From: Schmidtea polychroa
Lineage: Eukaryota
Direction: 5' to 3'
Assembly (NCBI GenBank): GCA_044892525.1
Contig: CM097885.1
Location: forward strand, 11,534,001 to 11,598,000
DNA length: 64,000 bases
Both the position numbers and the translations under genes were made by a program. This document shows, in pieces, positions 1 to 60,325 of this stretch. The stretch's first letter is position 1, and each line of letters begins with the position of its first letter. Below the pieces are notes generated by a model. It searched no databases and was not told where the DNA came from. It saw only the letters and a program-made list of their open reading frames with translations.

Positions 1-1050
1 TGAATACACAATTTTGAGTTAATTGTGCGTTGTAATTCTCCATACAACCACAAAAAATGGGACGTACAAATTGTCTTCTACGCCAAACACCACTGAGATA
101 CGTTCTCTATAGTAATGGTTAGTGTGTAAAGCTATTCACTCACCAATTACAATGATAAAATTATCAATTAATCATCTTTATCAATTTATCATTTATCAAT
201 TTCTCATCATGAGTGTATTTTGGAAATTTATTTTAGCCATTTTACAAATGGCTTTCAAGTAATTTTTTTATTTAAATTAAATTTTAAGACTTGAATTCTT
301 ATCCATATAAGATATGAGATCATTATTCAAGTTCTTAAATATTACTTTTAATCAACAGTATAATTATAAATTATTTTTAATTAATTTTCAGGGTTTTTTA
401 GGAATTTTTTGACATTTATCTTTATTTATTTTGGAATTATTTCGAAAAAATGTGAGTCCGATATATTTTTAATTATAATTAATTAAATAAATAAATCACC
501 AAAATATGTATTTTTTAAAACATTTTGGGAAAAATCGCTGATTAAAATAATTTTTTTAATTTTTGTAATTTTTTTCTGAGGCTTCTTTTAGGAAATCAAA
601 TATTGATTGAAAAGACATTGAACCAAATTCATCTGCTCCTGAAAATTTCATTAAAAATATATTTTTAAAAATTTTTAGCGATCTTTTTTTTTCTAAAAAC
701 TGTCTAAAATAGAATTATTATAGAAACAATTCTCAGCGGTGCATTTCGATGAATCAAAAGTTTGAATGTGTTTTTTAGTATATAATGTAAGATTATTGAT
801 TGTTGAGTTTGTGTGCAGTTTTAATTTTTCTTCCACTTTTTTGATTTCTATAGTATAAGATGTATCTGACTGCACTCTAAATGAAAACATCAACGTGAAA
901 TCAAAGTAAGTATGTATGTTTCTATAATGTAAGATTATTGATTTTTTTGTTATATTATAGGAATCGGTTCTCAGTGGCGTTTGGTGTAGAAGAGATTCAA
1001 TTCGAAAATCGTATATTTCTGTTGAATTTTGACACATAAAACAAACTAAC

Positions 1051-41016: not shown

Positions 41017-42462
41017 CAGTGATGTCCAACACAGTCGCCACTCGCCACATGTGGCGAGTGGGCTATGTGCTTGTGGCGAATGTAGCATTTTTTTTAATGT
41101 TTTATTTAATACTTCAATTCTATCCATAATACAAAGTTGTAACCAAAACATAAACAACGACAAATTTTTATTTTGTAATCTTACATGCTAAGAAATGCTC
41201 ATGGCAGATCCCGGTGTGTCAAATTTACGTACACATAGTGTCATGTGATTGTTTATTAAGAACTAAAATTTCGTTTTTAATTAATTTAGGTGTTTTCAAA
41301 TAAACTAAAGTAATTTAAATGATTATTATTGTTATTTACCTGCATTGCTGTTTTTTACAATTGGGTTACAATGAAAAAAAAGGAGATAGCTCTACATTCT
41401 ACAAAAAATATATTAATCTACCTCTTTCCTCTCATTATACTATGTAGCAACTCAGTCAGTAACCGTATACCTGTCGTATACCGAAAAACACTATGTTAGC
41501 GTTATGAATGTAATAGATGTAGACAGCAGTACTTTTCTGTAAATTTATATATAGACTGCTTTTTCCAACCAATGCACTATGTTCCAACTAACATTACGTA
41601 CGTACACATAGTGAGACAGTAGGATGTTTTAAGTATCTGCACTCTCATTCATATTTATTATTGTTTAAGTTAATTCCTAATTTATTATAATTTTGTTACA
41701 AGTAGTAAACAGAAGAAAACAAAAAAAATTTTTATGCCAAAATGTGCTTCTTATCTATTTGTGATTACACTTTATCTATTTGTGAAAACGCTTTTTTAAA
41801 ATTTAAAAACAAATGACATTTTCTTCAAAGTAGGCGTTTTTTTAGTTTGTTTTCCCGTTGTATGAATCCCATGTATTAGTCTCATGTTTGTTTTTGTTAA
41901 ATAAACAACTAACGTGCGACTTTAAATATTTAATATTATTCTTTTGAAATTATATTAAAATTATTTCACCGTAAAAAATGGATAAATATTTCAAACGACA
42001 TTCCGATACTGATAGTTCAGCTAGGCAAGAAGAAGCAACTGGTTCAACTCAATTAGAACCCAATAAAAGAGATTGGAAAAAGGTTTGCCGCAAATTTAAT
42101 GGTAAATGGGAACTAGAATTTGCTGTAATGGAACAAAACCAAAAAACTGTATGTATATTGTGTAACAAAGCTTTTAATGACAATAAAGTGGACAGCATAA
42201 AAAAGCATTATCAACAAATGCATAGGGAATTTGATTGTAAGTTTCCTGTCGGCAAGCAAGTTAGAACGAATGAAATAACTCGCTTAAAGTCAAAATTAGA
42301 AGGACAGCAATCTTTTTTTAAACGGTTTTTAACTACATCCGAACTTATTAATTTGGCTAGCTACAAAACGGCTTGGATTTTAGCTCAAAAAAGAAAACCT
42401 TTTTCGGATTGAGAACTAATCAAAGAGATTGTCCTGTCTATTATGGAAATTTTACTTGAAAA
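41017..42462 (+). mobile_element. hAT (Buster/SPIN-like) transposon, 5' 1.45 kb only, interrupted by the Polinton
   Basis: TIR CAGTGATGTCCAAC; preceded by ATATAATA (nnnTAnnn); near-identical in reverse to 58881-60325; ORF 41978-42412 has a BED-like Zn finger and a premature TGA. Confidence 0.93.
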
Positions 42463-43379
42463 AGTATTGTGTATATACCCAACCCAAACAGCCCTCCCAA
42501 CAAAAACATACCTCCATTACGCTTAAACCATTAGAAAAACAACATAAAACCTATGTTTTTATAGTATTTTAACCCCATATTTTAAACAACAACCACCCTT
42601 AATCTTTAAAGCCTCAAACTCAAAAGCTTCAAACTAAAAAGAGAATAGAAAAGAAAATGGCATTATGAAAAAGTTAGAGGGCTATTTGGGATAGGGCTAT
42701 ATACACACTACTTTTGATCGCAATCAAACTCCGGAGTTGATCTTTATCAGATTATTGATTTTAAATTATATAAATTAAAAAATAAATGAAAAATAGTAAA
42801 ACTGCTCTGAGGGGACAGTGGTATTTTTTTTTTCACTGTCCCCTCAATAGTTTTTTTGATCCGGATCATTTCAACCTCTTTCGTTTATCAAATCTCTTCT
42901 AATATACAAGCTGGCCAGACTCATACATCAGAATCAATCCGATAATAGCAGCACACCTTATTATTCGCTTCTCGCTCGAATACGATTTCATCGGCGTTTT
43001 AAGCGTGCTGCTCGAAAGTACAAATGAATTCGAAAGAGGTCCGAAAACAACTGAGAAATAAATGTGCACATTAAAGAATCGACCCGGGGGTGTTCGAAAG
43101 ACAGGTGGCGATAATTACCGGTTCGCCACCATCACCCGTTTCAATAATTTTTTTTTCATATTTATGTTTAAAAATAAAATAATTAATAAAATAAATAAAA
43201 TAAATAAAATAAAATAAAATATACAACTAAGATACCCACACTATTATTTTCAAATTTTTAATATTATTTTATGTTGAAAAAAAACTAACCTCAGATATGA
43301 TTTGAACCACCATCCATTTGAACCACTGTGCCAGTCTAGCCCACTGCGCTATCTAGGTTTGGATTTTTGTTATTTTTTA
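42463..43379. repeat. Polinton left TIR and subterminal repeat
   Basis: 42530-~43220 is an almost perfect mirror of ~56400-57131; inner ~43220-43379 mirrors 56225-56400 with more mismatches. Confidence 0.93.
43286..43359 (-). ncRNA. tRNA-like Pol III cassette 1
   Basis: A box TAGCGCAGTGG, B box GGTTCAAATC, terminal stem AACCT/AGGTT, T8 run just downstream. Confidence 0.6.
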
Positions 43380-43605
43380 GACTATAAATAATCGATTCAA
43401 GTTCTTTAACTCTTTCCTGTAATTGTTTCATTTTCTTCAATCTTATATCAGCAACATCTACAGCCTTCATATAAAAATGTCGATACTTTTCATTATCTAC
43501 CATCAACTCTTTGATGTATTCTAATGGTTCTTCTTCTCTTCTTTTCATTCTCTTATGTTTAACTTCATTCAATTCATTTCTCATTCTTTCTTTTAACTCA
43601 TCCAT
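43336..43605 (-). CDS. Small charged coiled-coil Polinton protein, 89 aa, unknown function
   Basis: ORF with the TAAAAATG start context shared by the other Polinton genes; 3' end overlaps cassette 1. Confidence 0.55.
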   Translation of the reverse strand: MDELKERMRNELNEVKHKRMKRREEEPLEYIKELMVDNEKYRHFYMKAVDVADIRLKKMKQLQERVKELESIIYSLKNNKNPNLDSAVG

Positions 43606-43770
43606 TTTTATAAATATTTTTTTTATTGGATATATTAATTTTTGGTAGTTAAAACGTTTTTGATCTTAAATTTCCAAGAGTTGCCGTTGACCAATCACCT
43701 TAAAAATTTGTACAAGTACTAAATCGAGTATGCTGATCAATATTTCGTTAAAAGAAAATTTGAAAAAAAA

Positions 43771-43843
43771 TGACCGAAATGGGATTTGAACCCATTGGTA
43801 TTGGCAATGCAGTCGAGTGCTATTACCACTAAGCTATTAGAGC
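43771..43843 (-). ncRNA. tRNA-like Pol III cassette 2 (tRNA-Cys-like, 73 nt)
   Basis: GCTCTAA TAGCTTAGTGGTAATAGC A CTCGA CTGCATT GCCAA TACCA ATGGG TTCAAAT CCCAT TTCGGTC A then T8; perfect T-arm, D-arm pairs, anticodon stem does not. Confidence 0.72.
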
Positions 43844-44013
43844 AATACTCAATATAAAATAAGTTGTTAATGTGTGACTATTTATTGATGAAATTAATAA
43901 TTAATTATTCATTTTCTCGACAACTACCACTCAGATCCATCTGAAAATTTAAATATATACTAAAATCAGTACGCTGAATCAGATTCCGTTGAAAATAAAA
44001 TATCGAAAAAAAT

Positions 44014-44088
44014 TGACCAAAATCGAAAATTGAACCCGGTACTCCCGGTGATAAAATTGAAGCCTATTCCCACTCCGCTATAATGGCT
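44014..44088 (-). ncRNA. tRNA-like Pol III cassette 3, paralog of cassette 2
   Basis: A box TAGCGGAGTGG, degenerate B box GGTTCAATT, colinear with cassette 2, followed by T7; part of a ~243 bp tandem unit. Confidence 0.55.
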
Positions 44089-44143
44089 TACATAATATAT
44101 TTAATTAATCCTATTTTGTGTGTGTAAATTTTAATATATAAAA

Positions 44144-45425
44144 ATGAATAATATAAAAATTCAAGAAAAAAATAAATTAAATCTTGATTATAATAAAGAA
44201 TTTACTCATGAAATCAAGAAAAACGATGTACTTAAAATCTCCCCAACTTTAGGATCTATTGCAAACTTAAATCGTAGGGGTGATATAGTTTTTCAATCTC
44301 TTCAAACATCAAACCCTATAGATATTTGTAATGCCAAATTATATTATAAAATCGAATTAGAAATTGAACCAAACAAAGATATAACCCTAGAAAATAATTT
44401 CTTTCCAAATTTATTCTCCAACATGAGATTAAAACTAGGATCATCAGAAATTGAAACTGTTTTGCATCCGGGAGTATATTCTACAATGTTAAATTTTATT
44501 TTGACTGGTTGTGATTATAAAAATGAATATGGTGAATTAACAGGCTGGATTCCTGATGTTAATAAAGGAGATTTAGATAAAGATGGTTTAGATATAAATT
44601 ATGGTTACTATAAAAGAGCTGATCTTTATAAATCTAAAAAATTTGAAGGTTATTTTGAATTAAAACACTTGTTTGGATTCCTTCAAAACTATAATCGTAT
44701 ACTTCATAATGTTTTTATAGAATTAGTTTGTAATAGAGTAGAAGGTGATAAAAGATTGTTCTATGGAGATAAGAATACAACAGCTAAATTAAAAATATCA
44801 ACACTTGAATTGCATATACCTGAATGGACATTAAATCCACATTCTGAAATCAAACTCTTTGAAAGATTAAATTCCAACAAGTCTATAAATGTAAATTATT
44901 TAAATAGAATCTGTCGTGAATTTAGTATGACAGAGGGTTCAACATATTCTATAAAGGTAGCGAATTTAGCATACCGACCAAGATATATCTTGATTGGATT
45001 CAAAGAAGTAGATTCATCTTTCCAAAAAAATAACAACTTGTTTATTCAAAAGATTGGAGTTGATAATTTAAAAACAATCCAAATTCATTTAAATAGTTCT
45101 TATTATCCAATAAATAGAATGGAATTTAATATTGAAAATAATGAAAACATATTCCCATATCTAAATTATATTGAAACATGATTTCAAAGTTGAACCGCAA
45201 TTAAGTTTAGAAGATTTCAAAAATTTATATTCTATATTTTGTATAAATGTATCAGATCAAGATGATAGATTAGCCATAAATAATGTTGATGTTACACTTC
45301 ATGTAACAAAGGATTCTAATTTTAAAGCTAAAGTATATACATTAATATTAGAAGAAAAAAAAATAGAAATGAAATTATATGGTGGAAAGATTTCAATAAT
45401 CGAAAATGTTAGGGGAGATACTTAA
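44144..45425 (+). pseudogene. Major capsid protein (double jelly-roll), frameshifted near 45175
   Basis: LENNFFPNLFSNMRLKLG..EIE, RPRYILIGF, I.LN..YYP; C-terminus EPQLSLEDFKNLYSIFCINVSDQ is in another frame (45171-45425). Confidence 0.85.
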
Positions 45426-45442
45426 TATTTTAACATTTTAAA

Positions 45443-46849
45443 ATGTCTTTCTATTGGAGATGTGAAAGTTGTAATTGTCAAGTTACAAGACATCATAAAG
45501 CAAGTCATCTAAAAACTAAAAAACATATAGGAGGCGACATGATTCCACGAGCCGGAGGCGACATACAATCTTCAAAAGTGACATCTTCAATATTAAAACC
45601 TTTTACTACAGAAAAATATCCAGGTGAAAGACATTTATTTAAACACAACTATACCGGACCAGGAACAAGATTAGATATTAGATTAGATGAAAATAATAAT
45701 CCCAAACAAGGAGAAGAACCAATAAATAGAATCGACCAAGCAGCTTTAAAACATGATATTGCTTACAATTCAGAAGATCTTAGAGATAGACATGTTGCAG
45801 ATGTTAATTTAATACATGATTTAAATAGTATCCAAAATCCATCAACCCAAGAAAAGATTCAAAGAGCTCTAGTTAAATTAGCAATGAAAGGTAAGATTTT
45901 CATAGGCTTAGGACACAGTCCGATCGCCATGGGTGCAAGACTTCCTAGGAAAGCAAAAGATGTTGCTAATAAAAAGATTATTGAACAAGCAGAAACTGAG
46001 AATCAACTCGAGAGTGCATCCAAGACTAGTTTATTATTCCCAACAGAATCACAAATAAAATATGCCAACGAATTACACCATGAATTTAGAAAAAATAAAA
46101 AATATTTAAAAGTTCAAGTACATGAAAAAGATCAAACATGGTCTGCTGATTTAGTCTTTATGCCAACCAAATCATCAGACCCTGAAAAATATAAAATAAT
46201 TTTAACTGTAATAGATTTATATACAAGATTTGCTTTTGCAAGGTGTTTAGAAAATAAAACAGGATATTCCATTACAGAAGCATTTGAAAATATATTTGAA
46301 GAACATCAAAGAATTCCAAAATATTTATGGTGTGATAAAGGAACAGAATTTTATAACAAAGTTTTTACAAAGTTTTTAAATGAAAATGATATTAAATTAT
46401 ATTCAACAGAAAACGAAGGAAAAGCAGTTGTGGTTGAAAGATTAAATAGAACATTAAAAAATAAAATGTGGAAATAATTTACGGCTATTGGAAAACAAAA
46501 ATGGAACAATGAATTGTTACAAAAGATTGTAAATGAATATAATAATGATGTACATAGTTCTATAAAATCAACACCTTTAAATGCTTCCTTGAATCCTTTA
46601 AAACTTATAAATCCTGAAACCGTTAAAGTGTTAAATGAAAAACCAAAGTTTAAAATTGGTGATCGAGTAAGAATATTTAAATATAAAAATAAATTTGAAA
46701 AAGGATTCACAGAAAAATGGACAAATGAAATTTTTATTATAAATAAAATACATTATACAACTCCAATAACATATAGCATCATTGATTTAAATAATGAAAA
46801 AATATTAGGTAGATTTTATAATAATGAGTTACAGAAAACAGATTTCTAA
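45443..46849 (+). pseudogene. Zn finger - parvovirus-type PLA2 - retroviral-like integrase fusion, in-frame TAA at 46475-46477
   Basis: YTGPGT...IDQAALKHDIAY (PLA2); WSADL, WCDKGTEF, VERLNRTLK (D-D-E); same-frame continuation KFKIGDRVRI...FEKG...WT.EIF. Confidence 0.92.
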
Positions 46850-47644
46850 AATAAACTTTTCCATATTTCAGCTTCTTCTCTATCCAAATAAATATAATTA
46901 TATTTTTCTCTCCAATGATTATCAACAAACATATCAAACATATTCTTATCGGGTTCAACATTTGAAAATAAATCATTATAAATCATATTCTTATCACGGC
47001 GATCTAATAATAAAAAATATAAAACAATTAGAATTATTTCTTATAGAGTTTTTATCTAAAGCATAATAAGTTTGAGATATATAAATAACATTACAATTAT
47101 TATGTCTTCCTCTAGTAAAGTAACTCTTTTGAATGTCTTGATTTTTCATGTTAACAACATCATCAAATATAACTAGATTCTTTTTATCTTTAGGAAGTAA
47201 ATCACAATGTAAAACATCTTCAGGTTTATTAGAGAATAAAACTTGAATCGCCTCTGCCTGCCCCTGATCTTCACAGATGTAATCATTTTTATTACTAATA
47301 TCTGATTCTAAAATCTTTTCCTTATACCAATCAACCATATCACAAGGTTGAAAAACTTCTTCAGGACATCTATGTTGATTTTTAAAAATATCAATTATAG
47401 CTTTTTTAGTTAATTTATTTTCAAATCCACATTTCAAAAGTTGTAATTCTGGTTGATTTATAGTTGTAGAGTAAAAGATTAAATTATTATAATCTAAAAC
47501 ACCATCTTCAAGTAACATTTTCAAAACAAGTACATTCTTTCCACATCCAGAAGATCCAACAATTAATAATCTAAAATTATCAGGAAATACTTTATTATTA
47601 AATTTAGATTTATGTCTATTTAAAATTGGTTTCCAAATATCCAT
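46846..47644 (-). pseudogene. A32/FtsK-like packaging ATPase, frameshifted near 47011
   Basis: GSSGCGKN (Walker A, N in place of T/S), LVIFDD, FTRGRH, ISQTYY; alternate frame continues LLDRRDKNMIY...W.EKYNYIYLD to a TAG overlapping the integrase stop. Confidence 0.92.
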
Positions 47645-47659
47645 TTTATTTATTTAAAA

Positions 47660-48256
47660 ATGACAACTGAAGAATCTTTGCAAGAATTAATAAATTCAAA
47701 TAAAATTAAATCAGTAGTAATTGATGGTAAAAAATATTTTATTGGAAAACATGTAAAAGAACAAGTTAGAGCGAAGCTGAAGGGCTCTACGACTAAAGAA
47801 GGCGGCATTCTTCCATTAGCTGCTTTAATACCTGCAATCATTGCTGGTTTATCAGGTGCTGCTGGAATAGCTGGAGGAATTGCAACTACAGTTCAAAAAG
47901 CTAAAGAATCTCAAAAGACAGACCTAGAAAAAGAAAAACTACAAACTGAAATCGATTCAATGAAGAAGGTAGGGCAAGCTAAGGGAAAAGGCCTCTATCT
48001 TAATCCATGTGAGGGGACTCTGTCTGAAGGTCAAAAGTCTCAGGGGACTCTGTCCAAGGGAAAGGGTCTCTATCTTGATCCTTATAAAGGTAGAGGTTTA
48101 AATGATTTTTTAAAAAATCAAATTTCTACATCTGAATCTTTATCTTCAAAAGATAAAGATGATTTAAAAAAAATATGTAAATCTTTAAAGAATGGATGCC
48201 TTTGTAAAACTAAAAATGGTAAAGGTTTATACTTGAAGCCCTTCGAACCCCATTGA
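47660..48256 (+). CDS. Putative virion core/membrane-active protein, adenovirus pX-like, with GKGLYL repeats
   Basis: GGILPLAALIPAIIAGLSGAAGIA hydrophobic segment; three GKGLYL and one GRGL. Confidence 0.65.
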   Translation: MTTEESLQELINSNKIKSVVIDGKKYFIGKHVKEQVRAKLKGSTTKEGGILPLAALIPAIIAGLSGAAGIAGGIATTVQKAKESQKTDLEKEKLQTEIDSMKKVGQAKGKGLYLNPCEGTLSEGQKSQGTLSKGKGLYLDPYKGRGLNDFLKNQISTSESLSSKDKDDLKKICKSLKNGCLCKTKNGKGLYLKPFEPH

Positions 48257-48278
48257 TACCATTTTTAATACCATAAAA

Positions 48279-49160
48279 ATGGTATATGAAGAAAGATTAG
48301 AACTTTTAAAAAAATTACAATCTGAACAAGATAAATATAATAAAAAGGATACAACTCAACATGCTGAATCTATAATATTAAATGAGGTAATAACACAACA
48401 ACAGGGGCCAACAATTAAAGCTATAAAAGAGTTGGAAGATTTCAATGAGCAAGCAAAATTTAAAGAGTTAGAAGATAAAAAACAAAAAATAAAAGAACTA
48501 GAGTGGCAGGATAAAGAAAAAGAATCCAGTGAAAACCATCCTGAAAGTCATTCTGAAAGAAATCAAAGAAAACGCAGAAGAATTTCTAATGTGGAAGAAG
48601 AAGAAATGTTTTTAAAAACAAAACCTCTTAAAGTTGATCCTAAAATTAGAGATGATTTACCTCCTTCAATTAGACCCACATTTAATACTAATACTGAAGG
48701 ATATCAAATAATAACAATTAATAAACAAAACTTTACTTTATATTCAAATTCAGAAAATAAATCACGTATTCATTCACAAAATGTTTATAATAATGAATAT
48801 TTAGACTTTGAATTTACAGATGATTTTTATAGATTACTTTGTGGATATTCTTCAGATGATGTTGAAGAAATTAAAAAATATTTAAATTTAATAAGATTAA
48901 TAAGAGCTAGTTCTAAAGCAAAACACATTCAAGATTTAAAGAATTATTTAAATAAAAATGAAAAGGGTTATGTTGTTACAGAGGGTGAGGGATTGGTTGA
49001 ACCAAACCCAATCAATCTTTTTATTGAATTAAGAAAACTATTATCTGCAAGGAAAGCAGGACATAATAATTTAGATTCTGATATTTTAAAGATTTCTAAA
49101 GATTTGTTAAAACAAGGAATAATTTCAAAAGATAAATTTAATAAATATACGAAGTTATAA
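48279..49160 (+). CDS. Polinton protein of unknown function, 293 aa
   Basis: Intact ORF in the structural cluster; C-terminal GEGL...LL.A.KAGHNN...I...LL..G.I motif of the kind seen in Polinton conserved ORFs. Confidence 0.65.
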   Translation: MVYEERLELLKKLQSEQDKYNKKDTTQHAESIILNEVITQQQGPTIKAIKELEDFNEQAKFKELEDKKQKIKELEWQDKEKESSENHPESHSERNQRKRRRISNVEEEEMFLKTKPLKVDPKIRDDLPPSIRPTFNTNTEGYQIITINKQNFTLYSNSENKSRIHSQNVYNNEYLDFEFTDDFYRLLCGYSSDDVEEIKKYLNLIRLIRASSKAKHIQDLKNYLNKNEKGYVVTEGEGLVEPNPINLFIELRKLLSARKAGHNNLDSDILKISKDLLKQGIISKDKFNKYTKL

Positions 49161-49168
49161 AATACAAA

Positions 49169-49588
49169 ATGACTTGTCCTTCAATATTAGATTTTTTAAA
49201 AACATTTGGAATAAATGCAAAAACAAATTTTGATTTAAAAGATTATGCAAATTATTTAAATTTAAAAATAAAAATATTAATGAATGATGAATTGTCGAGT
49301 CTGAAAGAGAATAATATAATAATAAATTATCAAAATTCAAATGAAAAAGGATCTCATTGGGTTTGTATATATAATAAATCTATATACTTTGATTCTTTTG
49401 GGATTAAACCCACTAAAGAAGTTGAAGACTATCTCTCGGACTACACTTTTAATTCTTTACAAGTTCAACCTAATAATACTAAAATATGTGGTATTTTAAG
49501 CTTATATGTTTTGTATAGATTGAATAATGGAGAAGGTTTCACTTCCTTAATCCAAGAAATTTATAATGATTTAAAATCTCTATTATGA
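49169..49588 (+). CDS. Adenain-like cysteine maturation protease
   Basis: IIN...GSHWVC, YFDSFG, QVQ.....CG (H-D-Q-C). Confidence 0.9.
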   Translation: MTCPSILDFLKTFGINAKTNFDLKDYANYLNLKIKILMNDELSSLKENNIIINYQNSNEKGSHWVCIYNKSIYFDSFGIKPTKEVEDYLSDYTFNSLQVQPNNTKICGILSLYVLYRLNNGEGFTSLIQEIYNDLKSLL

Positions 49589-50346
49589 AAATGGAGCTTC
49601 GCAACCTTCTGGAAGATAATTTAAAAAAAATGGTAAACATAATGTCAGATAAATATTCAAGAACTTTATCTATAAATTCAAAAGAATCAGACTTTACTAT
49701 AAACTTTCAAGATTCAATAAAATTAGATCAAGATTTAAATTATGAATTAGGTCTATTATGGTTTTGTGCTTATAATACTATTTTTAATATAACTAAAGAT
49801 AATAACATATTTTATTATATAAGCCCAAAATCTACAGATAAGATTATAATAACAATCGAACCTGGGGCTTATGAGATAAAAGATTTAAATAATATACTTT
49901 CTAAAAGAACAAATGGAGCCATTAAAATTAAAATGGATTTACCAACTTCAAAATGTATAATGACTTTAGAGAATATAGGAATTCATTTTCAAAATAATAG
50001 TTTCTTTAGAACAATTTTAGGATTTACACGAAACCATTATATCACACCTGAAGTTACATCAGAAAATATTATAAAAATAATAAATACAAACACAATAAAT
50101 ATTCATTGTGATTGTATAACAGGTTCTTATAATAATGGTAAACAAATAAATGTTTTATATTCCTTTCCCTCAAACACAGTTCCTATGGGATATAAAATAG
50201 TTGAAAGAATGAATCCTCCAAATTATTTGCCTTTATGTAGAAAATATATAATGGATATTAATTTTAAAATTCTTAACCAAGAAGGAGAATTGATTGATTT
50301 TAATGGAGAAGAGATTTCAATGTATTTACATCTGAAACAGGTTTGA
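49585..50346 (+). CDS. Minor capsid (penton-like, single jelly-roll) protein
   Basis: F...IKLD...YELGL, YNTIFNI..NN.F, INIHCDCI.GSY.NG....LYSF, GYKIVE...YLP, NQ.G.LIDFNGE...LHLK. Confidence 0.88.
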   Translation: MKMELRNLLEDNLKKMVNIMSDKYSRTLSINSKESDFTINFQDSIKLDQDLNYELGLLWFCAYNTIFNITKDNNIFYYISPKSTDKIIITIEPGAYEIKDLNNILSKRTNGAIKIKMDLPTSKCIMTLENIGIHFQNNSFFRTILGFTRNHYITPEVTSENIIKIINTNTINIHCDCITGSYNNGKQINVLYSFPSNTVPMGYKIVERMNPPNYLPLCRKYIMDINFKILNQEGELIDFNGEEISMYLHLKQV

Positions 50347-50370
50347 AGATTCATTTTAAATTATTAATAA

Positions 50371-51369
50371 ATGAGTTCTTATATTCCTTGTAATAGAGGT
50401 GGTGGAACAATAAAAACAGGGTTTAATACAGAAGAAATATTAACTTTAACAGAAAATAAATATATTAATGAAAGAGGTGATTCAATGAAAGGAGATTTAA
50501 ATTTAAATGGACACAAGATAAAAGATTTATCTTTACCAACTGATGAAGCTGATGCAGTTAATAAAAAATATGTTGATGGTGTTAAAAATTATACTGATTT
50601 AACAACAACAAGAATTGAAAGTTCATTAACAACAAAAATTGATTCAATGGAATCAAAGCTTAATAATATCGAACAACGATTTAATGATAAATTTGACAAG
50701 TTACAAAGTCTGTTAACTGAACAAGTTGTAAAGTTAAATACTAGCATATTAAATTCTAAAGATAAACAAATTATGAATACTAAATTTAATACAATATATA
50801 ATATAATAAATGAGATGATTACATCATTTAATAAAAGACTTGTCAAATTAGAATCTCATACAACACACATTAACACAACACACACTATTAGAAAAAGAGC
50901 TGCTGAATTAGAACAGAATAAAACATTATTACCCCATACATATAAACATTTTATAGAACCAACTTTAATAACAACAAATAGTAAAGAATGGAGTGTTTTT
51001 ATGGTTGTAAAGATTATTGATCCTTATTTCTTTTTATTTGATGATGATGGTGAAAGAATGAAATGGTTTGTGAAATGTGATTATAATAATAAGCTTGAAA
51101 AGGTTGATGTTATAATGACTAGTTATGATTTACCACACGGAGATTGGTATGTTAATACTCATTCACATGGACTACATAAAGTTAAAAGTAAGAATATTAT
51201 TTTTAAAAGCACACTTGTGGATTATATAGATTTAATATTTTATGAAAAGAAGGTTGATGTTGATGAAGTTTGTAAAGCATTGATGGAATTGTATAAAGAT
51301 ATTCTCTCAACAAGAGTTTCTTTTGATATCCGAGTATTGGTACCAGATAATAAAGTCTTATTTTTTTAA
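50371..51369 (+). CDS. Putative fibre/spike protein
   Basis: GDSMKGDLNLNGHKIKDL..PTDEADAVNKKYVD fibre-stalk motif, coiled coil, globular C-terminus; directly after the penton. Confidence 0.65.
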   Translation: MSSYIPCNRGGGTIKTGFNTEEILTLTENKYINERGDSMKGDLNLNGHKIKDLSLPTDEADAVNKKYVDGVKNYTDLTTTRIESSLTTKIDSMESKLNNIEQRFNDKFDKLQSLLTEQVVKLNTSILNSKDKQIMNTKFNTIYNIINEMITSFNKRLVKLESHTTHINTTHTIRKRAAELEQNKTLLPHTYKHFIEPTLITTNSKEWSVFMVVKIIDPYFFLFDDDGERMKWFVKCDYNNKLEKVDVIMTSYDLPHGDWYVNTHSHGLHKVKSKNIIFKSTLVDYIDLIFYEKKVDVDEVCKALMELYKDILSTRVSFDIRVLVPDNKVLFF

Positions 51370-51377
51370 TTATTAAA

Positions 51378-51989
51378 ATGGAAGAATTAAGAGAAGAAAA
51401 ATTTTATCCAGAATTGAGATCATCAGGATATTATTCCGAAGGTCACAAAGGTTCCAAGGCTCCCATAGCTCCCACAGAACTTGAAATTATGAGAGTAAAA
51501 GAATTTAAGTCAGAAACCTTACATTTACAAGATTTATTAAAGCATTATAAAAAAATTAAAAATAGATGGAATAAAGGGAATACAGTTTTAAAAGTTATAG
51601 GTTATTCTTTAGGATTTGCATCTGCAATATTAACAGTTATTTTACCTATAACTTTACCAGTTTTAACACTTGCGCCAGTAATACTTGGAAGTATTTCTGT
51701 AGCTGATGGTTTCTTAACTGAAATAGTTTCATTATCTTATACTTCAAAAAAGAAAAGTTTATATCGTGAAGTTTGTTTATCAATAGAATTAGGAATCTCT
51801 AAATTATTTTTATTTCAATTAAAAGCTTTGGAAGATGGAATCTTAACTGATGATGAAATAATGAAATCAAATCAAATAATACAAGATATTAAAAATAATA
51901 TTAATAGATTAAAAAGCGCTAATGTTATAACTAATGAATATTCTAAAAAAATTAAACGAGAGAAATGGTTAAAGAATTCTTATTTATAA
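51378..51989 (+). CDS. Polinton membrane-associated protein, 203 aa
   Basis: YPEL/P.AP N-terminus, basic helix, then hydrophobic hairpin VIGYSLGFASAILTVILPITLPVLTLAPVILG. Confidence 0.6.
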   Translation: MEELREEKFYPELRSSGYYSEGHKGSKAPIAPTELEIMRVKEFKSETLHLQDLLKHYKKIKNRWNKGNTVLKVIGYSLGFASAILTVILPITLPVLTLAPVILGSISVADGFLTEIVSLSYTSKKKSLYREVCLSIELGISKLFLFQLKALEDGILTDDEIMKSNQIIQDIKNNINRLKSANVITNEYSKKIKREKWLKNSYL

Positions 51990-52067
51990 AATGGATGTAT
52001 TTTTAAAAAAGTAGATCAGGTTGCTATAGTTGCTTAAATTAATTGTCGACATTTTATTATTAAAAAA

Positions 52068-55000
52068 TTAAATATCGTTGAAAGCCAACCTATGAATCAT
52101 TAATTTATGATCTTTAAATTCTTTATCACTTAGACCTTTTATATATTCAGGATCAGTATTAAAATATTTAAGTTCTAAACATATAGGATTAAAAACTTGA
52201 GAATATAAAGGCTTCTCGATTTCTCTCTCGGGATAAATGATTTCAACATTATAAATATCAAGATCAGTAATTTTTGTATCATATAACTTATTCAACTTTT
52301 CTAGATTTTTTATTATCGGTATTAAATTATTTCCTATAGGAAGAGTTGTCTTTAAATCACTTAGTATGAATCTTTTATCATCATAATTTGATAATGATAC
52401 TTTTTGGGATTCTATCAAGTAAATATCATGGTTTTCACTTTTAAGTTGATGTATTTCATCAATTTTATCTTTATGATTTGGATTCAATGTATCTATATAA
52501 TCTTGATGAGAAAGATTCTTTGCAACGGATTTCTGTATTCCTTTACATCTGTTATCCTTTACAGGTTTTTCATCTTGTCCCTCTGGTCCTTTAGGGAATA
52601 TAGGATATTTATATGAAATAATTTCCTCTTTTTCTGGGGTTTTAAATATAATTTCTCGGGTTATAAATTCAGGGTTTTTAAATGTTTCGTATGAATATTG
52701 TTTAGCACGAATAAATATTCCATTTTCTATAGGAGTAAAAGGTTTTTCATCTTTAAATGAAAATAATTCTCCAGTTGAATTTATTAAATTTGAAAGTATA
52801 GGATTTTCAGCTATATCTCTTTGTAAATCATGAGTTCTTATTGTTAAAAACATTGAATCTGTATCCATTGCATGCATTGATATATTAGAACCATATATAG
52901 GTTGTAAGATGTTATAATATGTTTCATACATTTGTAATTTTGAAAGTTCTAAAATTGAAAACCCTATAAATATTGGTTTGTTGTATGTTTTCTCAAAATT
53001 CTTTAGTTCTATTGCAGTAAGACTTTCAGAAAATACTTGTGCGTTTTTAAATGTAGGCTTTCCTAGCATACGATTATAACGCTTAATATCTTTGGCAGTA
53101 TTAGTTAGGAGTTCAATATGAGTATATTTATCAACATTCTCCATTGTCTTCCCAAAGACTGAATTGTTTAAAAGTTTATAATTATTATCTTTAAAAAGGT
53201 TACCTTCTCTTTTTGCAATGTTTCGACATCTAATGTTCTCCTCGATAAAAGCTTTCATGAATGGCCTCTGTTTAAATCTTATGACACTATGAACTTTTTT
53301 TAATATCATACCTCGTGAAAGATAAAATTGGAGGAGTCTATAGTGACAAAGATAAAACCTTCGATCTGTTTGATCACAAAGAAGTTTCATTGTTGGGGGT
53401 TTATCTTGTGAGATTTGCCATTCAAAAAGTTCGTTGATATCAATCTTTCTTCTTACAGGAGCTAATGGGAAATATCTTGTTCCTGATTTTATATCATCTG
53501 GATATAATAAGTCACATTCTACAAAGTAACCTATTGGAGAATCTTTAGGTGTTGAAAGTATTTCTTTTATAAGTTCTTTTGATGATTCTATTTCAATGAA
53601 ATCACCCATTGGTAAATATTGAGTCATAATTCCTGAATATAAAGCTGTTGCATCTATATAAAGTATAAATATAGGATTTTTCATTGTTTCTAATATTTCT
53701 TTTAATTCCTCATTGTTAATTTTTATATATGGATCAGAGGTCTTTGAAAGCATTCTGCTAGTAGTTATTGCATTTCTAGCTTTTATTTCTCTATTCCCCA
53801 TTACTGAAGAGACTCCTCCTCTAATGTTTGTTTTAATTAGATTAAACATATCGAGGTTAGTTAAAAGATCTATAATTTTATCAGCTTCTTCTATATTTGA
53901 AGTCCAAATGGTATATAATAAAGTATCCCAAGCTAAAGAGGGTGCTGTTATATAATTGTAAGGTTTAAGAACAAAAGATTTTGTAAATTCTTCAAAGCAA
54001 TCTGCTAGAATATAAACATCCAAGGATAAATACATACTTGTATATTCTCCTAAAGTTTTACACTTGAATAATTCCCACATTTTATTTGCTCGAGAATATT
54101 CTTGATCTGTAATATGATATTTTTGAAGTTGTGAATAGAAATCTTCTTGGCTAGGAAGACTTGTTTCATTATATCTCTCAAACGAGTCAACATAGTCATA
54201 AGGATATATTCCTTTTGCTAAACATGTAGGATATTCTTCTAGAGGAATATTATTTTTTTCCAAGAATTCTCGAGTGATTTTAAAATCTTCTGGTTTCATT
54301 GTTTTTGCTATTCCATCTAGAGACATTTGAAGAAAGTTTAACGAGTCTATACATTTTAATTTTCCATATTCAACTGATTTATATTTTTCCTTTGTAAGTC
54401 CTATAACTTTGAAAGAGTTTTAGCATTTGCTGCTAAATGTTTAATAAATAGATGTATGTCATAACCAAAAAGATTATGAAATATAACAGGTACAAATTTA
54501 GGAGTATGACAATTAAGATTACAATTTTTATGAGCTGCTCCTCGATAATTATTTTCCTTTTTTAAATGATCATGATCGAGGACTTTTATATTCGGAGACT
54601 CTTCAAATGGTTGTTTACACATCCAACAGTTGGAAGTGTTTTCATATTCTTGTTGTTGTTGATTAGAAATATTTTGAGGATAGTTTGTTTTTAATACTTT
54701 AAATATTTCATGTTCTAGATCATTTATACTTTTAGTAAAATGATTCAAGACTTCTGTTTCTGAAATTCCTCGAAATGTATATTCTCTAGATTCTATGAGT
54801 TCAGGATAATTACTTTTAAATAATAATTTATAAGCAGATGGTAATTGTTTAGTTTTTTTAACACTATTAGGTTTATTCCTTTTTCTTAGAAAGGCTTTCA
54901 TCCTCTCTGGTTTCATCTTCTCTCCTGAGGAGTTCCAGGAATCCATGAGTTTATTTTTTTCTATTATTTTTAAATATTGTTTAACCAAATCTTGTTTACG

Positions 55001-56146
55001 ATTTATAGATTCAAAGTCCCCATAAAGCACTCCTACTGTTTGTAGTAAATTTGAAAAGTTTTTAAAATACATCTTGGAATTATTAGGCATTTTAATTAAA
55101 GCTGGATCATCTTTTTCACAAAATCTTGTATGTTTCCCTTTAACACGTTCATAAATATTAATTTTAAGATTATTTAAACTTTCAAATTTTGGAATGTTTT
55201 CTAGTTTCATTGGATGTTTGAATCCTTTGGGAAATATTAATTCATTTTCATATTGTTTGTATTTTGAAACTCTCTGAGGGTTTGATTCTTGAGGGTGTAA
55301 ATGTGCAAGTATTGACCAGACGAAACATTTGTTATCATTATTCTGTATGTTTATAACATTTTTAGATTTAAAGGGTGTAGGAATATAAGATTTAGGATTA
55401 GGTGGTAATCCTCTCCAATAATCAATCACTAAAGTTTGGAAAGAGTTGAATACTAAGTTTGAATCTCCTAATTCATTTTCAACCTCTTCTTGTTTTGCTT
55501 CTACTGCTTGAATTATTTCTTTGATGGTTTTATCAAATCCTTTAGTTGAAAATAAATATTTAAAGGGTATTCCAATTTCAACATCTAAAGGTGTTGTCTT
55601 TTCTTCTGCTCCTCGCCAGTATTTTGCTTTGATTATAATTTTATATTTTTTAACATTATACCTTGTCGGTTTATAATTTTTTAAAGCTTCAGTGAAAGAA
55701 TTTTTAATATTTTTTTTATTTTTATTTATATATTCTCCAGGAGTTATAGGTCCATTGATTTCTAATTGAAATTCATCTACATGATTAAAATCATCCCAGT
55801 TATATTTTTCTCTTTCAACATGATCAGGTTCTCCTTCTGAATGACATTTCTAATCGTCAGAATTTTGTTTTTTATTTTTACATTCTTTTATATGTTCTAA
55901 ATAATAGAAATTTACTTTTGTTGAAAAGTTACAGTGAGAACATGTAAATATTTCTCTATTTTTCCCGATACAATTTTCAAAATGTTTATTATATCCAGAA
56001 TGTAGAAATCTTCCTTTACATTTAGGACAAACTTTTGAATTTGTATCATTAAGATTGTTGTCTTTTAATAAATGAGCTTTCGATTTTAAGTGAGAAATTA
56101 ATCCTGTTTTATTTTTAAAACCTTTATTACAAATATTACAATTCAT
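52068..56146 (-). pseudogene. polB: Protein-primed family B DNA polymerase with N-terminal Zn fingers; TAG at 55850, frameshifts near 55645 and 54410
   Basis: DFES, HNLFGYD, D..ALY, KLLNNSVFGKTMEN, DTDS; DHDH...YRGAAH..CNL; frames stay open across the gaps (KCHSEGEP..., FKVIGLTKEKYKS...IDSLNFLQMSLD). Confidence 0.95.
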
Positions 56147-56224
56147 TTTTAGAAAAAAACTTTTTATTGGATATCCTGTTTTGATTTTTTATGTTTTTAT
56201 ATTTATTTTCATAATATGACAGTA

Positions 56225-57131
56225 TAAAAAATAACAAAAATCCAAACCTAGATAGCGCAGTGGGCTAGACCGGCACCGTGGTTCAAATGGATAGCGGTTC
56301 AAATCCTAACTGTGGTTAGTTTTTTTTTTTTTTAAAAATTTGAAAATAATAGTGTAGGTATCTTAGATTTATATTTTATTTTATTTATTTTTATTTTATT
56401 TTATTTTATTTTATTTTATTTTATTTTATTTATTTTATTTATATTATTTATTTTATTTATTTTATTTATTTTATTAATTATTTTATTTTTAAACATAAAT
56501 ATGAAAAAAAAATTATTGAAACGGGTGATGGTGGCGAACCGGTAATTATCGCCACCTGTCTTTCGAACACCCCCGGGTCGATTCTTTAATGTGCACATTT
56601 ATTTCTCAGTTGTTTTCGGACCTCTTTCGAATTCATTTGTACTTTCGAGCAGCACGCTTAAAACGCCGATGAAATCGTATTCGAGCGAGAAGCGAATAAT
56701 AAGGTGTGCTGCTATTATCGGATTGATTCTGATGTATGAGTCTGGCCAGCTTGTATATTAGAAGAGATTTGATAAACGAAAGAGGTTGAAATGATCCGGA
56801 TCAAAAAAACTATTGAGGGGACAGTGAAAAAAAAAAATACCACTGTCCCCTCAGAGCAGTTTTACTATTTTTCATTTATTTTTTAATTTATATAATTTAA
56901 AATCAATAATCTGATAAAGATCAACTCCGGAGTTTGATTGCGATCAAAAGTAGTGTGTATATAGCCCTATCCCAAATAGCCCTCTAACTTTTTCATAATG
57001 CCATTTTCTTTTCTATTCTCTTTTTAGTTTGAAGCTTTTGAGTTTGAGGCTTTAAAGATTAAGGGTGGTTGTTGTTTAAAATATGGGGTTAAAATACTAT
57101 AAAAACATAGGTTTTATGTTGTTTCTCTAAT
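56225..57131. repeat. Polinton right TIR, outer end truncated
   Basis: Reverse complement of the left TIR; match ends at ...GTTTCTCTAAT (57131). Confidence 0.93.
56245..56318 (+). ncRNA. tRNA-like Pol III cassette 4, mirror of cassette 1
   Basis: A box TAGCGCAGTGG (56253), B box GGTTCAAATCC (56296), followed by ~14 T. Confidence 0.62.
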
Positions 57132-57254
57132 ATAATATAATCAAAAAGTTTAGTTTTAATGTGTTATTAAAATAAAATAATTTCCAAATAAATATATAAA
57201 TAATATTCTGAGCAATGTTATTATTCAATTTCAACATACGACAAATATCTAAAC

Positions 57255-60200: not shown

Positions 60201-60325
60201 TTACAACTTTGTATTATGGATAGAATTGAAGTATTAAATAAAACATTAAAAAAATGCTACATTCGCCACAAGCACATAGCCCACTCGCCACATGTGGCGA
60301 GTGGCGACTGTGTTGGACATCACTG
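57255..60325 (-). mobile_element. Full-length hAT (Buster/SPIN/GTF2IRD2-like) transposon
   Basis: TIRs CAGCGGTGTCCAAC / GTTGGACATCACTG; perfect 8 bp TSD ATCTAAAC at 57247-57254 and 60326-60333. Confidence 0.96.
57427..59365 (-). pseudogene. hAT transposase with stops at 58931 and 57662 and a frameshift near 57625
   Basis: FSLALDESCD, TTDGAPAM, HCMIH, RWLSRGKVLERF, FGTTWVCESTFS. Confidence 0.93.

What the first reader, a model, noticed from the sequence alone, without database searches (positions are those of the whole stretch)
43286..44088. Polinton/adintovirus carries tRNA-like Pol III small-RNA genes, a possible VA-RNA analogue
Seen: three minus-strand ~73-75 nt cassettes (43286-43359, 43771-43843, 44014-44088) and a mirrored fourth (56245-56318). 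Each has an exact TRGCNNARYGG A box at about +8, a GGTTCAA B box at tRNA spacing and an immediate T7-T14 run. Cassette 2 resembles tRNA-Cys with intact D and T arms. The anticodon stems do not pair, while the promoter boxes and terminators are conserved across otherwise diverged copies. Known: adenovirus VA RNAs and MHV68 TMERs are viral Pol III tRNA-promoter RNAs that counter host RNA defences, and Polintons are related to adenoviruses. Inference: these are virus-encoded non-coding RNAs (RNAi/PKR decoys, small-RNA precursors) or TFIIIC-binding chromatin barriers at the element ends. I know of no description of this in Polintons but cannot search the literature.
Basis: partly seen in the sequence, partly recalled or inferred. 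Interest (0 to 1): 0.88.

Follow-up and report, generated by a model that had tools for sequence, protein, structure and literature searches.

The report
Degenerate tRNA-type units in Polinton ends
A very abundant virus-like Polinton transposon carries worn-down tRNA-like units at its ends that keep only the signals read by RNA polymerase III, so they probably recruit that machinery and do not act as tRNAs or as adenovirus-style decoy RNAs.

Summary
All four cassettes exist at the stated coordinates. An A-box/B-box pattern hits only these four sites in 64 kb, against 0 in 100 shuffles. Only cassette 2 passes Rfam tRNA (32.4 bits, anticodon GCA, broken anticodon stem).

The host element is a Polinton at about 42463-57131, from a family with thousands of copies. 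Cassettes 1 and 4 form the inner end of both terminal inverted repeats and always face outward. Cassettes 2 and 3 are a tandem 243-nt duplication inside an optional module upstream of the capsid gene. They are not a free SINE: 30 of 32 cassette-2 copies lie beside cassette 1.

Across 61 cassette-1 instances, the boxes and T-run vary in 3 of 31 columns and the rest in 23 of 50 (p=0.0006). No RNA fold is conserved.

My best reading is tRNA-derived Pol III/TFIIIC-recruiting units (short RNA and/or chromatin boundary). The VA-RNA analogy is not supported. Expression could not be shown.

tRNA genes in polinton-like viruses are already published. Earlier notes of this scan report tRNA genes and Pol III-type hairpins in animal Polintons of other genomes, so this is a new variant of a known kind.

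The parts
42463..57131 (.). Polinton/Maverick element. This copy is damaged: the capsid gene is split and the right end lacks the outer 67 nt.
   Evidence: Other genomic copies stop matching at 42463 and 57131. The left end begins AGTATTG, and the right arm starts matching at the position equivalent to 42530.
42463..43383 (.). Left terminal inverted repeat; cassette 1 forms its inner end.
   Evidence: Inverted-repeat arms 42530-42833, 42824-43213, 43171-43261 and 43277-43383 pair with 56221-57131.
56221..57131 (.). Right terminal inverted repeat; cassette 4 forms its inner end.
43277..43359 (-). Cassette 1 with its T8 run. It has A box TAGCGCAGTGG, a second A-like box TGGCACAGTGG and two GGTTCAAAT boxes. 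It has no tRNA fold and reads outward.
56245..56333 (+). Cassette 4 with its T14 run, the mirror copy of cassette 1 in the right repeat. It reads outward.
   Evidence: (93% complementary over 107 nt).
43763..43843 (-). Cassette 2 with its T8 run, a degraded tRNA-Cys(GCA)-like gene.
   Evidence: Rfam tRNA 32.4 bits.
44006..44088 (-). Cassette 3 with A+T7. It is a more decayed tandem paralogue of cassette 2, with B box GGTTCAATTTT.
   Evidence: (the units align, and the downstream 94 nt are 74% identical).
43637..44126 (-). Optional accessory module holding cassettes 2 and 3; it is absent from some subfamilies.
   Evidence: Loci joining about 43631/43642 to about 44114/44127. Contig joint 43636->44127. 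L103 keeps the module but lacks 43404-43646.
43336..43605 (-). 89-aa ORF whose last 8 codons and stop lie in cassette 1. It is optional in the family.
   Evidence: No Pfam family.
44144..45425 (+). Double jelly-roll major capsid gene, split here into 345-aa and 84-aa frames.
   Evidence: Pfam PF21738. 101 of 117 scored genomic matches have no stop, and most have an open frame of 431 aa.

Best explanation
The cassettes are tRNA-gene-derived, type-2 RNA polymerase III units that belong to this Polinton family.

There are two kinds.
- Cassettes 1 and 4 form the inner end of each terminal inverted repeat and always point outward.
- Cassettes 2 and 3 are a tandem 243-nt duplication of a tRNA-Cys-like gene. 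They sit in an optional module between the left repeat and the capsid gene.

None of them can serve as a decoding tRNA. What is kept is the A box, the B box, their tRNA spacing and the oligo-T terminator.

I infer that the maintained property is binding of TFIIIC and Pol III. That would give short transcripts of about 75-80 nt, and/or an open, insulated chromatin patch at each end of the integrated element next to its first inward-reading genes.

Shown here: the motifs, their placement, their family-wide presence and their lower variability. Inferred, not shown: TFIIIC/Pol III binding, transcription and any boundary effect.
For: - Motif specificity: the A-box/B-box pattern gives 4 hits, all in the cassettes, against 0 in 100 shuffles. 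B-box-like 9-mers number 12 against 3.15 expected, and 6 of the 12 are in the cassettes.
- Terminators: all four cassettes are followed at once by T7-T14, against a slot chance of about 0.011.
- The cassettes are part of the element. 34 distinct close copies all carry the three left-end cassettes.
- Copy numbers: a strict cassette-1 pattern has 2,890 genomic matches and a cassette-2 41-mer has 3,221.
- Context: in the first 16.3 Mb of contig C1, 30 of 32 cassette-2 sites have cassette 1 within 520 nt, on the same strand and on the interior side.
- Orientation: in the same stretch there are 22 outward-facing (-,+) cassette-1 pairs 9-14 kb apart and 0 inward-facing pairs.
- Constraint on boxes within cassette 1: in 61 cassette-1-type instances from 55 loci, 3 of 31 box and T-run columns vary (minor allele >=3). 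In the rest of the cassette 23 of 50 vary (Fisher p=0.0006), and in the flanks 35 of 70.
- The common A-box polymorphism is A/G at the degenerate R position.
- Constraint on boxes between cassettes: any two cassettes share 16-18 of 18 box positions but only 17-29 of 56-58 other positions. The near-identical pair 1/4 is the exception.
- Coding constraint cannot explain the A box. It is also kept in the right repeat and in subfamilies without the 89-aa ORF.
- No RNA fold is conserved, which points to a DNA-level signal.
Against: - No transcript was shown. No sequencing run is on record as RNA.
- In runs only guessed to be RNA, short contigs run across the T8 terminator (43255-43328). One contig carries an 18-A tail on the minus strand after 43267. 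This looks like a polyadenylated read-through or DNA, not a Pol III end.
- Cassettes 1 and 3 of this copy lack the terminal CC of the B box, and cassette 3 has an internal TTTT.
- Cassettes 2 and 3 are dispensable. In one search, 11 of 20 loci keep the left inverted repeat but lack cassettes 2 and 3, and the capsid frames listed for those places are open.
- Among close copies, cassettes 2 and 3 vary about as little as their flanks: 0.3-0.5% against 0.6%. There is therefore no extra constraint visible for them.
- The copies are related, so the Fisher test overstates independence.
- Relatives with 33-53% capsid identity in metagenome contigs have no such unit in 0 of 11 loci.
Confidence: 0.45

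Rival explanations
1. The cassettes are neutral relics. An ancestor of the family captured host tRNA genes, for example a piece of a tandem tRNA array, as cargo. These have since decayed and now merely hitch-hike. The intact boxes would then reflect their origin in the universally conserved tRNA nucleotides and the youth of the family.
For: - Host tRNA genes lie in tandem arrays with periods of 278, 281 and 424 nt, close to the 243-nt spacing of cassettes 2 and 3.
- Cassette 2 shares 18 of 18 box positions and the run TCGACTGCA with the host tRNA-Cys gene.
- Most copies are 96-99% alike, so there has been little time for decay.
- Cassettes 2 and 3 are optional.
- Earlier scan notes report functional-looking and decayed tRNA cargo in other animal Polintons (unchecked).
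Against: - The non-box parts have diverged to 29-52% identity between cassettes while the boxes stay at 16-18 of 18.
- Within the cassette-1 type, variation avoids the boxes and T-run.
- The spacer after the host tRNA-Cys gene shows no evident likeness, by eye, to the sequence after cassette 2. No alignment of the two was run.
- The strict outward-facing placement in both repeats of every full-length pair seen is not expected of random cargo.
Confidence: 0.3
2. The conserved motifs are DNA signals for something other than Pol III. Candidates are binding sites for the element's own replication or integration proteins in the subterminal repeat, parts of Pol II promoters for the adjacent inward-reading genes, or 3'-end signals of the 89-aa ORF mRNA.
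For: - Cassette 1 holds two direct GTGGTTCAAAT repeats.
- Cassette 4 lies about 100 nt upstream of the divergent zinc-finger ORF. In subfamilies without the optional modules, cassette 1 lies directly upstream of the capsid gene.
- A contig with an A18 tail ends about 10 nt past the T-run.
Against: - The joint match to A box, B box, 43-44-nt spacing and T-run, in three independently diverged cassettes, is most simply a Pol III unit. One of the three still scores as a tRNA.
- The cassettes lie about 800-900 nt from the termini, where terminal-protein or integrase sites are not expected. This last point is from general knowledge and was not tested.
Confidence: 0.13
3. The cassettes encode VA-RNA/TMER-like non-coding RNAs that act through their structure, as PKR or RNAi decoys or as small-RNA precursors.
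For: - The Pol III-type layout is shared with VA RNAs and TMERs (TMER abstracts PMC8223928 and PMC4337559).
- Polintons are relatives of adenoviruses (abstract of PMC10328495, seen in the listing).
- Earlier scan notes describe Pol III-type hairpins in other Polintons (unchecked).
Against: - There is no Rfam match besides tRNA.
- Folds of cassettes 1, 3 and 4 are no better than shuffles: 76-91 of 200 shuffles fold as well.
- The alifold energy of 37 cassette-1 variants is -4.59 against -5.19 for column shuffles, 55 of 100 shuffles are as good, and there are no compensatory changes.
- The products would be only about 75 nt, with no hairpin between the B box and the terminator.
Confidence: 0.07
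4. A host tRNA-derived SINE or tRNA pseudogene family happened to insert into this copy.
For: The genome has very many tRNA-like sequences: 112,431 rough first-look candidates.
Against: - The cassettes are present at the same places in all 34 distinct close copies examined.
- Of the 20 diverse loci, 5 carry all three cassettes (L067's cassette 1 was not caught by the regex). A further 11 keep the left repeat without cassettes 2 and 3, and 9 of these have a regex-detected cassette-1-type unit.
- 30 of 32 cassette-2 sites sit beside cassette 1 in the Polinton-end arrangement.
Confidence: 0.02

Closest known systems
tRNA genes carried by polinton-like viruses, virophages and MELD viruses
   Same: tRNA-type Pol III genes inside small Polinton-related virus genomes. 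PMC12220804 reports 558 tRNAs in a scan of about 8,300 PLV/virophage genomes (passages read). PMC8502044 flags predicted tRNA genes in a figure legend.
   Different: Those are predicted working tRNAs, proposed to adjust codon supply. Here only 1 of 4 units reaches the Rfam threshold and none has a paired anticodon stem. Two of the units are built into the inverted repeats, and the host is an integrated animal Polinton present in thousands of copies.
Adenovirus VA RNA I/II (Rfam RF00102)
   Same: Virus-borne Pol III unit with internal A and B boxes and an oligo-T terminator, in a virus lineage related to Polintons.
   Different: VA RNAs are about 160 nt and act through a long, stable stem (recalled). 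Here the units are about 75 nt, with no Rfam hit and no fold better than shuffles for 3 of 4.
MHV68 TMERs (tRNA-miRNA-encoded RNAs)
   Same: Viral tRNA-like Pol III genes clustered at one genome end (abstracts PMC8223928 and PMC4337559).
   Different: TMERs keep a tRNA-like fold followed by pre-miRNA hairpins before the terminator (recalled). Here the fold is lost and the T-run follows at once.
TFIIIC B-box boundary elements and tDNA barriers (S. pombe IR-L/IR-R, centromeric tRNA genes)
   Same: B-box-bearing sequences in inverted repeats that flank a chromatin domain. Their action depends on TFIIIC/Pol III signals, not on an RNA product (abstracts PMC7474672, PMC4502379 and PMC2040200).
   Different: Those are host chromosomal elements in a yeast. 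Here the boxes ride on a mobile element in an animal, and no chromatin data exist.
tRNA-derived SINE heads
   Same: A decayed tRNA-like sequence that retains the A and B boxes.
   Different: SINEs have a body and tail after the head and disperse on their own. Here a terminator follows at once and the copies travel only inside the Polinton.

Membership tests
tRNA gene (Rfam RF00005) | Covariance-model score at or above the gathering score of 29 bits | tested here: inconclusive
   Cassette 2 scores 32.4 bits. Cassettes 1, 3 and 4 give no hit at E<=10. In sister copies cassette 2 scores 26.7 bits in 4 loci and 32.5 bits in 1.
tRNA gene (Rfam RF00005) | Cloverleaf with paired acceptor and anticodon stems; detectable by ARAGORN | tested here: not met
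   ARAGORN finds 0 genes in the window. In cassette 2 the anticodon stem pairs 2 of 5 and the acceptor stem 5 of 7. The host tRNA-Cys gene is found by the same tool.
Type-2 (tRNA-type) Pol III transcription unit | A box TRGCNNAGTGG and B box GGTTCGANNCC about 30-60 nt apart (consensus recalled) | tested here: met
   The A box is exact in 4 of 4. The spacing is 43-44 nt in 4 of 4. The full B box is present in cassettes 2 and 4, and GGTTCAA only in cassettes 1 and 3.
Type-2 (tRNA-type) Pol III transcription unit | Oligo-T terminator just downstream | tested here: met
   The runs are T8, T8, A+T7 and T14. T>=7 is rare at about 0.011 per 12-nt slot.
Type-2 (tRNA-type) Pol III transcription unit | TFIIIC/Pol III binding and transcription | not testable with these tools
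   No run is on record as RNA, and only contigs could be laid.
Adenovirus VA RNA (RF00102) | Match to the family model; long stable stem structure | tested here: not met
   No hit at E<=10. Fold z-scores are -0.26, -0.06 and -0.27 for cassettes 1, 3 and 4.
MHV68 TMER | tRNA-like fold followed by pre-miRNA hairpin(s) before the terminator (recalled) | tested here: not met
   The T-run starts 0-2 nt after each cassette.
tRNA-derived SINE | Independent dispersal in the genome | tested here: not met
   30 of 32 cassette-2 sites lie within 520 nt of cassette 1 in a fixed arrangement.
Polinton/Maverick (adintovirus-type) element | Protein-primed PolB, rve integrase, double jelly-roll capsid, A32-type ATPase, terminal inverted repeats | tested here: met
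   Pfam PF03175, PF00665, PF21738 and PF04665. The adenovirus-type protease was not found by Pfam in the ORFs tested.
TFIIIC-dependent chromatin boundary | B boxes flanking a domain; TFIIIC occupancy; barrier activity | not testable with these tools
   Only the sequence layout is seen: outward-facing box-bearing units in both repeats.

The most novel reading that the evidence does not exclude
An animal Polinton family has built tRNA-derived TFIIIC/Pol III units into both terminal inverted repeats, facing outward, and maintains only their promoter and terminator signals. They would work as portable chromatin boundaries or open-chromatin anchors, or as sources of short Pol III RNAs, that shield or prime the integrated virus-like element. 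With roughly 3,000 or more copies of each cassette type, the family would also have seeded thousands of new TFIIIC sites across the host genome.
Probability: 0.35. Interest if true: 0.7.

Novelty: new variant of a known kind. Interest (0 to 1): 0.5.

Why it matters
If these units bind TFIIIC or Pol III, a virus-like transposon would be carrying its own insulator or small-RNA genes. That would give a concrete handle on how integrated Polintons stay expressible or escape silencing.

It would also mean that one family has added thousands of Pol III-type sites to an animal genome, with possible effects on chromatin organisation and the Pol III budget.

If they are only relics, they still show that tRNA cargo, known from protist polinton-like viruses, also entered animal Polintons. 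They also show how such cargo decays.

Tried and rejected
- RNA evidence: no RNA holder was listed.
  - The four runs laid are contigs of uncertain kind. X1-X3 are only guessed to be RNA.
  - Their depth cannot rank parts of the stretch, and parts without cover say nothing.
  - I therefore drew no conclusion on expression. I noted only that short contigs cross the T8 run and that one has an A18 tail after 43267.
- Related elements in IMG/VR: 0 confirmed loci.
- Metagenome relatives of the capsid protein, 11 loci at 33-53% identity (best segment):
  - no tRNA by ARAGORN;
  - none by Rfam at E<=1;
  - no A-box/B-box unit.
  - Many of these contigs are short, and it is unknown whether they include the element end.
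- Closer relatives (73-74% capsid identity, P0002 and P0003) could not be fetched as DNA.
- Searches of the own genome with capsid queries returned only this family, so no deeply diverged in-genome family was compared.
- Host SINE origin is rejected.
- A conserved RNA fold for cassette 1 was looked for and not found.
Full report
**Observation**

A regex for an A box (T[AG]GC..A[AG][CT]GG) followed 25-50 nt later by GGTTC[AG]A matches exactly these four sites in the 64-kb window on both strands. It matched none of 100 shuffles.

The distance from A-box start to B-box start is 43-44 nt in all four, as in a tRNA. Each cassette is followed at once by T8, T8, A+T7 or T14. T>=7 runs number only 113 per 64 kb on both strands, about 0.011 per 12-nt slot.

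Rfam finds one tRNA, cassette 2: 32.4 bits against a gathering score of 29, anticodon GCA, T stem 5 of 5 paired, D stem 3 of 4, acceptor 5 of 7, anticodon stem 2 of 5. Nothing is found for cassettes 1, 3 and 4 even at E<=10 in an 871-nt search. ARAGORN finds nothing in the window. The full B box GGTTCRANNCC is present only in cassettes 2 and 4.

**The element**

Pfam identifies these genes:
- a double jelly-roll capsid gene, 44144-45181 plus 45171-45425, split in this copy;
- an rve integrase with a PLA2-like domain, 45443-46477;
- an A32-type ATPase, 46994-47644 (-);
- a protein-primed PolB, 52068-54326 (-).

Other genomic copies stop matching at 42463 and 57131, so the element spans about 42463-57131. 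Its left end begins AGTATTG. The right repeat of this copy lacks the outer 67 nt. The inverted repeats run from 42463/42530 to 43383 and from 56221 to 57131.

The window lies in a 781-Mb assembly with four very large contigs. The family is very large. Capsid searches give about 3,000 first-look candidates. 117 were scored at 96-100% identity, and 101 of these have no internal stop.

**Two kinds of cassette**

Cassettes 1 and 4 are mirror copies, 93% complementary over 107 nt. They form the inner end of the two inverted repeats, and both read outward. Each holds an A box, a second A-like box (TGGCACAGTGG) and two GGTTCAAAT boxes.

Cassettes 2 and 3 are a tandem duplication with a 243-nt period. 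The tRNA-like parts align, and 94 nt downstream are 74% identical.

**Distribution in the family**

All 34 distinct close copies carry the three left-end cassettes.

I chose twenty loci for differing capsid ORF lengths. They show a modular region between the left repeat and the capsid gene:
- 5 have the 89-aa ORF plus cassettes 2 and 3;
- 5 have the ORF only;
- 6 have neither, so that cassette 1 abuts the capsid gene, sometimes in tandem;
- 1 (L064) keeps the repeat with a cassette-1-type unit but shows no match between 43380 and 44148, so I left it unclassified;
- 3 match only in the capsid gene.

L103 has cassettes 2 and 3 without most of the ORF. Contig joints 43636->44127 and 43379->44137 show the same module variants in sequencing runs.

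Genome-wide, a strict cassette-1 pattern has 2,890 matches and a cassette-2 41-mer (up to 2 mismatches) has 3,221. The reversed-pattern controls gave 0 for both.

In the first 16.3 Mb of contig C1, 30 of 32 cassette-2 sites have a strict cassette-1 match within 520 nt. All 30 are on the same strand and on the interior side. In the same stretch there are 22 (-,+) cassette-1 pairs 9-14 kb apart and 0 (+,-) pairs. The cassettes therefore travel with the Polinton, are not a free SINE, and the repeat-borne pair always faces outward.

**Constraint**

Among close copies, cassettes 2 and 3 vary as little as their flanks, 0.3-0.5% against 0.6% mean minor-allele fraction. This test has no power for them.

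Cassette 1 lies in a variable part of the repeat, where 24 of 74 columns vary, so it can be tested. I used 61 cassette-1-type instances from 55 loci and counted columns with a minor allele in at least 3 copies:

| Region | Variable columns |
|---|---|
| Constrained A-box/B-box positions plus T-run | 3 of 31 |
| Rest of the cassette | 23 of 50 (Fisher p=0.0006) |
| Flanks | 35 of 70 |

The common polymorphism inside the A box is A/G at the degenerate R position. The copies are related, so the p-value is generous.

Between the paralogous cassettes, and against the host tRNA-Cys gene, 16-18 of 18 box positions are identical. Only 17-29 of 56-59 other positions are.

Coding constraint does not explain the A box. 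It overlaps the last codons of the 89-aa ORF only at the left end of some subfamilies, yet it is also kept in the right repeat and in subfamilies without the ORF.

**RNA structure**

Cassettes 1, 3 and 4 fold no better than shuffles: z of -0.26, -0.06 and -0.27, with 76-91 of 200 shuffles as good. Cassette 2 has z of -2.45.

An RNAalifold run on 37 distinct cassette-1 variants gives -4.59 kcal/mol against -5.19 for column shuffles. 55 of 100 shuffles are as good, and there are no double compensatory changes. What is conserved looks like a DNA signal, not an RNA shape.

**Origin**

The host keeps tRNA genes in long tandem arrays:
- tRNA-Lys with a 424-nt period and tRNA-Arg with a 278-nt period;
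- tRNA-Cys(GCA) with about 1,000 pattern matches at a 281-nt period.

The 243-nt tandem of cassettes 2 and 3 resembles such an array. Cassette 2 shares the D-arm and anticodon-side run with the host tRNA-Cys gene. Its 3' half and downstream spacer differ. Capture of tRNA genes followed by decay of everything except the promoter and terminator is the simplest history. The donor cannot be named.

**Expression**

No run is on record as RNA, and only contigs could be laid. In runs merely guessed to be RNA, short contigs (52-74 nt) lie on 43255-43368 and cross the T8 run. One contig carries 18 A (minus strand) after 43267. If these are RNA, they are read-through or polyadenylated molecules and not Pol III products. 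I treat this as no evidence either way on Pol III transcription.

**Relatives and literature**

Capsid relatives exist at 40-96% identity in public protein sets. IMG/VR gave no locus. Eleven metagenome loci at 33-53% identity have no tRNA or A/B-box unit, but many are short.

Published work reports tRNA genes in polinton-like viruses and virophages: 558 in about 8,300 genomes (PMC12220804, passages read). MELD viruses also carry them (PMC8502044, figure legend). A preprint reports that Maverick elements are abundant in planarian genomes (passages read).

I found no paper on Pol III units or tRNA-like cassettes in animal Polintons. The searches were: 'Polinton'+'tRNA'; 'Maverick'/'tRNA-like'/'terminal inverted repeat'; 'Polinton'+'RNA polymerase III', which gave 6 reviews seen in the listing only; and 'Mavericks'+'VA RNA', which gave 0. 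Supplements were not read.

Earlier AI notes of this scan are unchecked leads. They report tRNA genes and Pol III-type hairpins in animal Polintons of other genomes. They also report a 7SL-RNA head in a gene-less Polinton relative of this same genome. The general theme has therefore been met before on other DNA.

**Reading**

The best-supported explanation (about 0.45) is that these are tRNA-derived type-2 Pol III units kept for their ability to recruit TFIIIC/Pol III. They would yield short RNAs and/or act as boundary or open-chromatin sites at the element ends, next to the first inward-reading genes.

The layout recalls the B-box-bearing inverted-repeat boundaries and tRNA barriers of fission yeast (abstracts PMC7474672, PMC4502379, PMC2040200).

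| Rival | Confidence |
|---|---|
| Neutral relics of tRNA cargo | about 0.30 |
| Other DNA-level signals | about 0.13 |
| Structure-based VA/TMER-like RNA | about 0.07 |
| Host SINE insertion | about 0.02 |

Binding, transcription and any chromatin effect remain inferred.

Noticed in passing
window 41089-42462 and 58881-60254 (with 57132-58880): The Polinton is flanked by a 99-100% inverted duplication of the 5' part of a hAT/ZMYM-like gene (Spin-doc zinc finger, 144 aa). The right side continues into a 412-aa DUF4371 ORF (57662-58900, -), while the left copy stops at the Polinton end. This is a rearrangement or palindromic insertion site.
   Followed up: partly
window 43600-43633 and 56141-56174: A shared 34-nt motif, 82% identical and in direct orientation, lies just upstream of the start codons of the 89-aa ORF and the C2H2 zinc-finger ORF (55850-56146, -). 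It is possibly a common promoter of the element's small genes.
   Followed up: no
G000:C1:269250378-269285815 and beyond (L102): The host tRNA-Cys(GCA) gene gives about 1,000 pattern matches, the listed ones in tandem at a 281-nt period. tRNA-Lys(TTT) and tRNA-Arg(TCG) arrays have 424- and 278-nt periods.
   Followed up: partly
L044 5436-5515 (-): A metagenome contig carrying a related capsid gene also holds a hairpin matching Rfam mir-754 at 48.6 bits, below the gathering score of 84.
   Followed up: no
window 45443-46477: The integrase ORF carries an N-terminal phospholipase A2-like domain (PF08398, E=1.8e-9) ahead of the rve core.
   Followed up: no
L002, L053, L057, L062, L068: Some copies carry tandem duplications of the repeat's inner or outer part: two cassette-1 units about 230-245 nt apart, or a repeated terminal 584 nt. 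Cassette-1 variants look like mosaics of a few alleles, which suggests frequent recombination between subfamilies.
   Followed up: partly
L103 about 375-395 (minus strand): In one copy cassette 2 has lost its 5' acceptor strand through a short deletion that still recreates the A box TAGCTTAGTGG.
   Followed up: no
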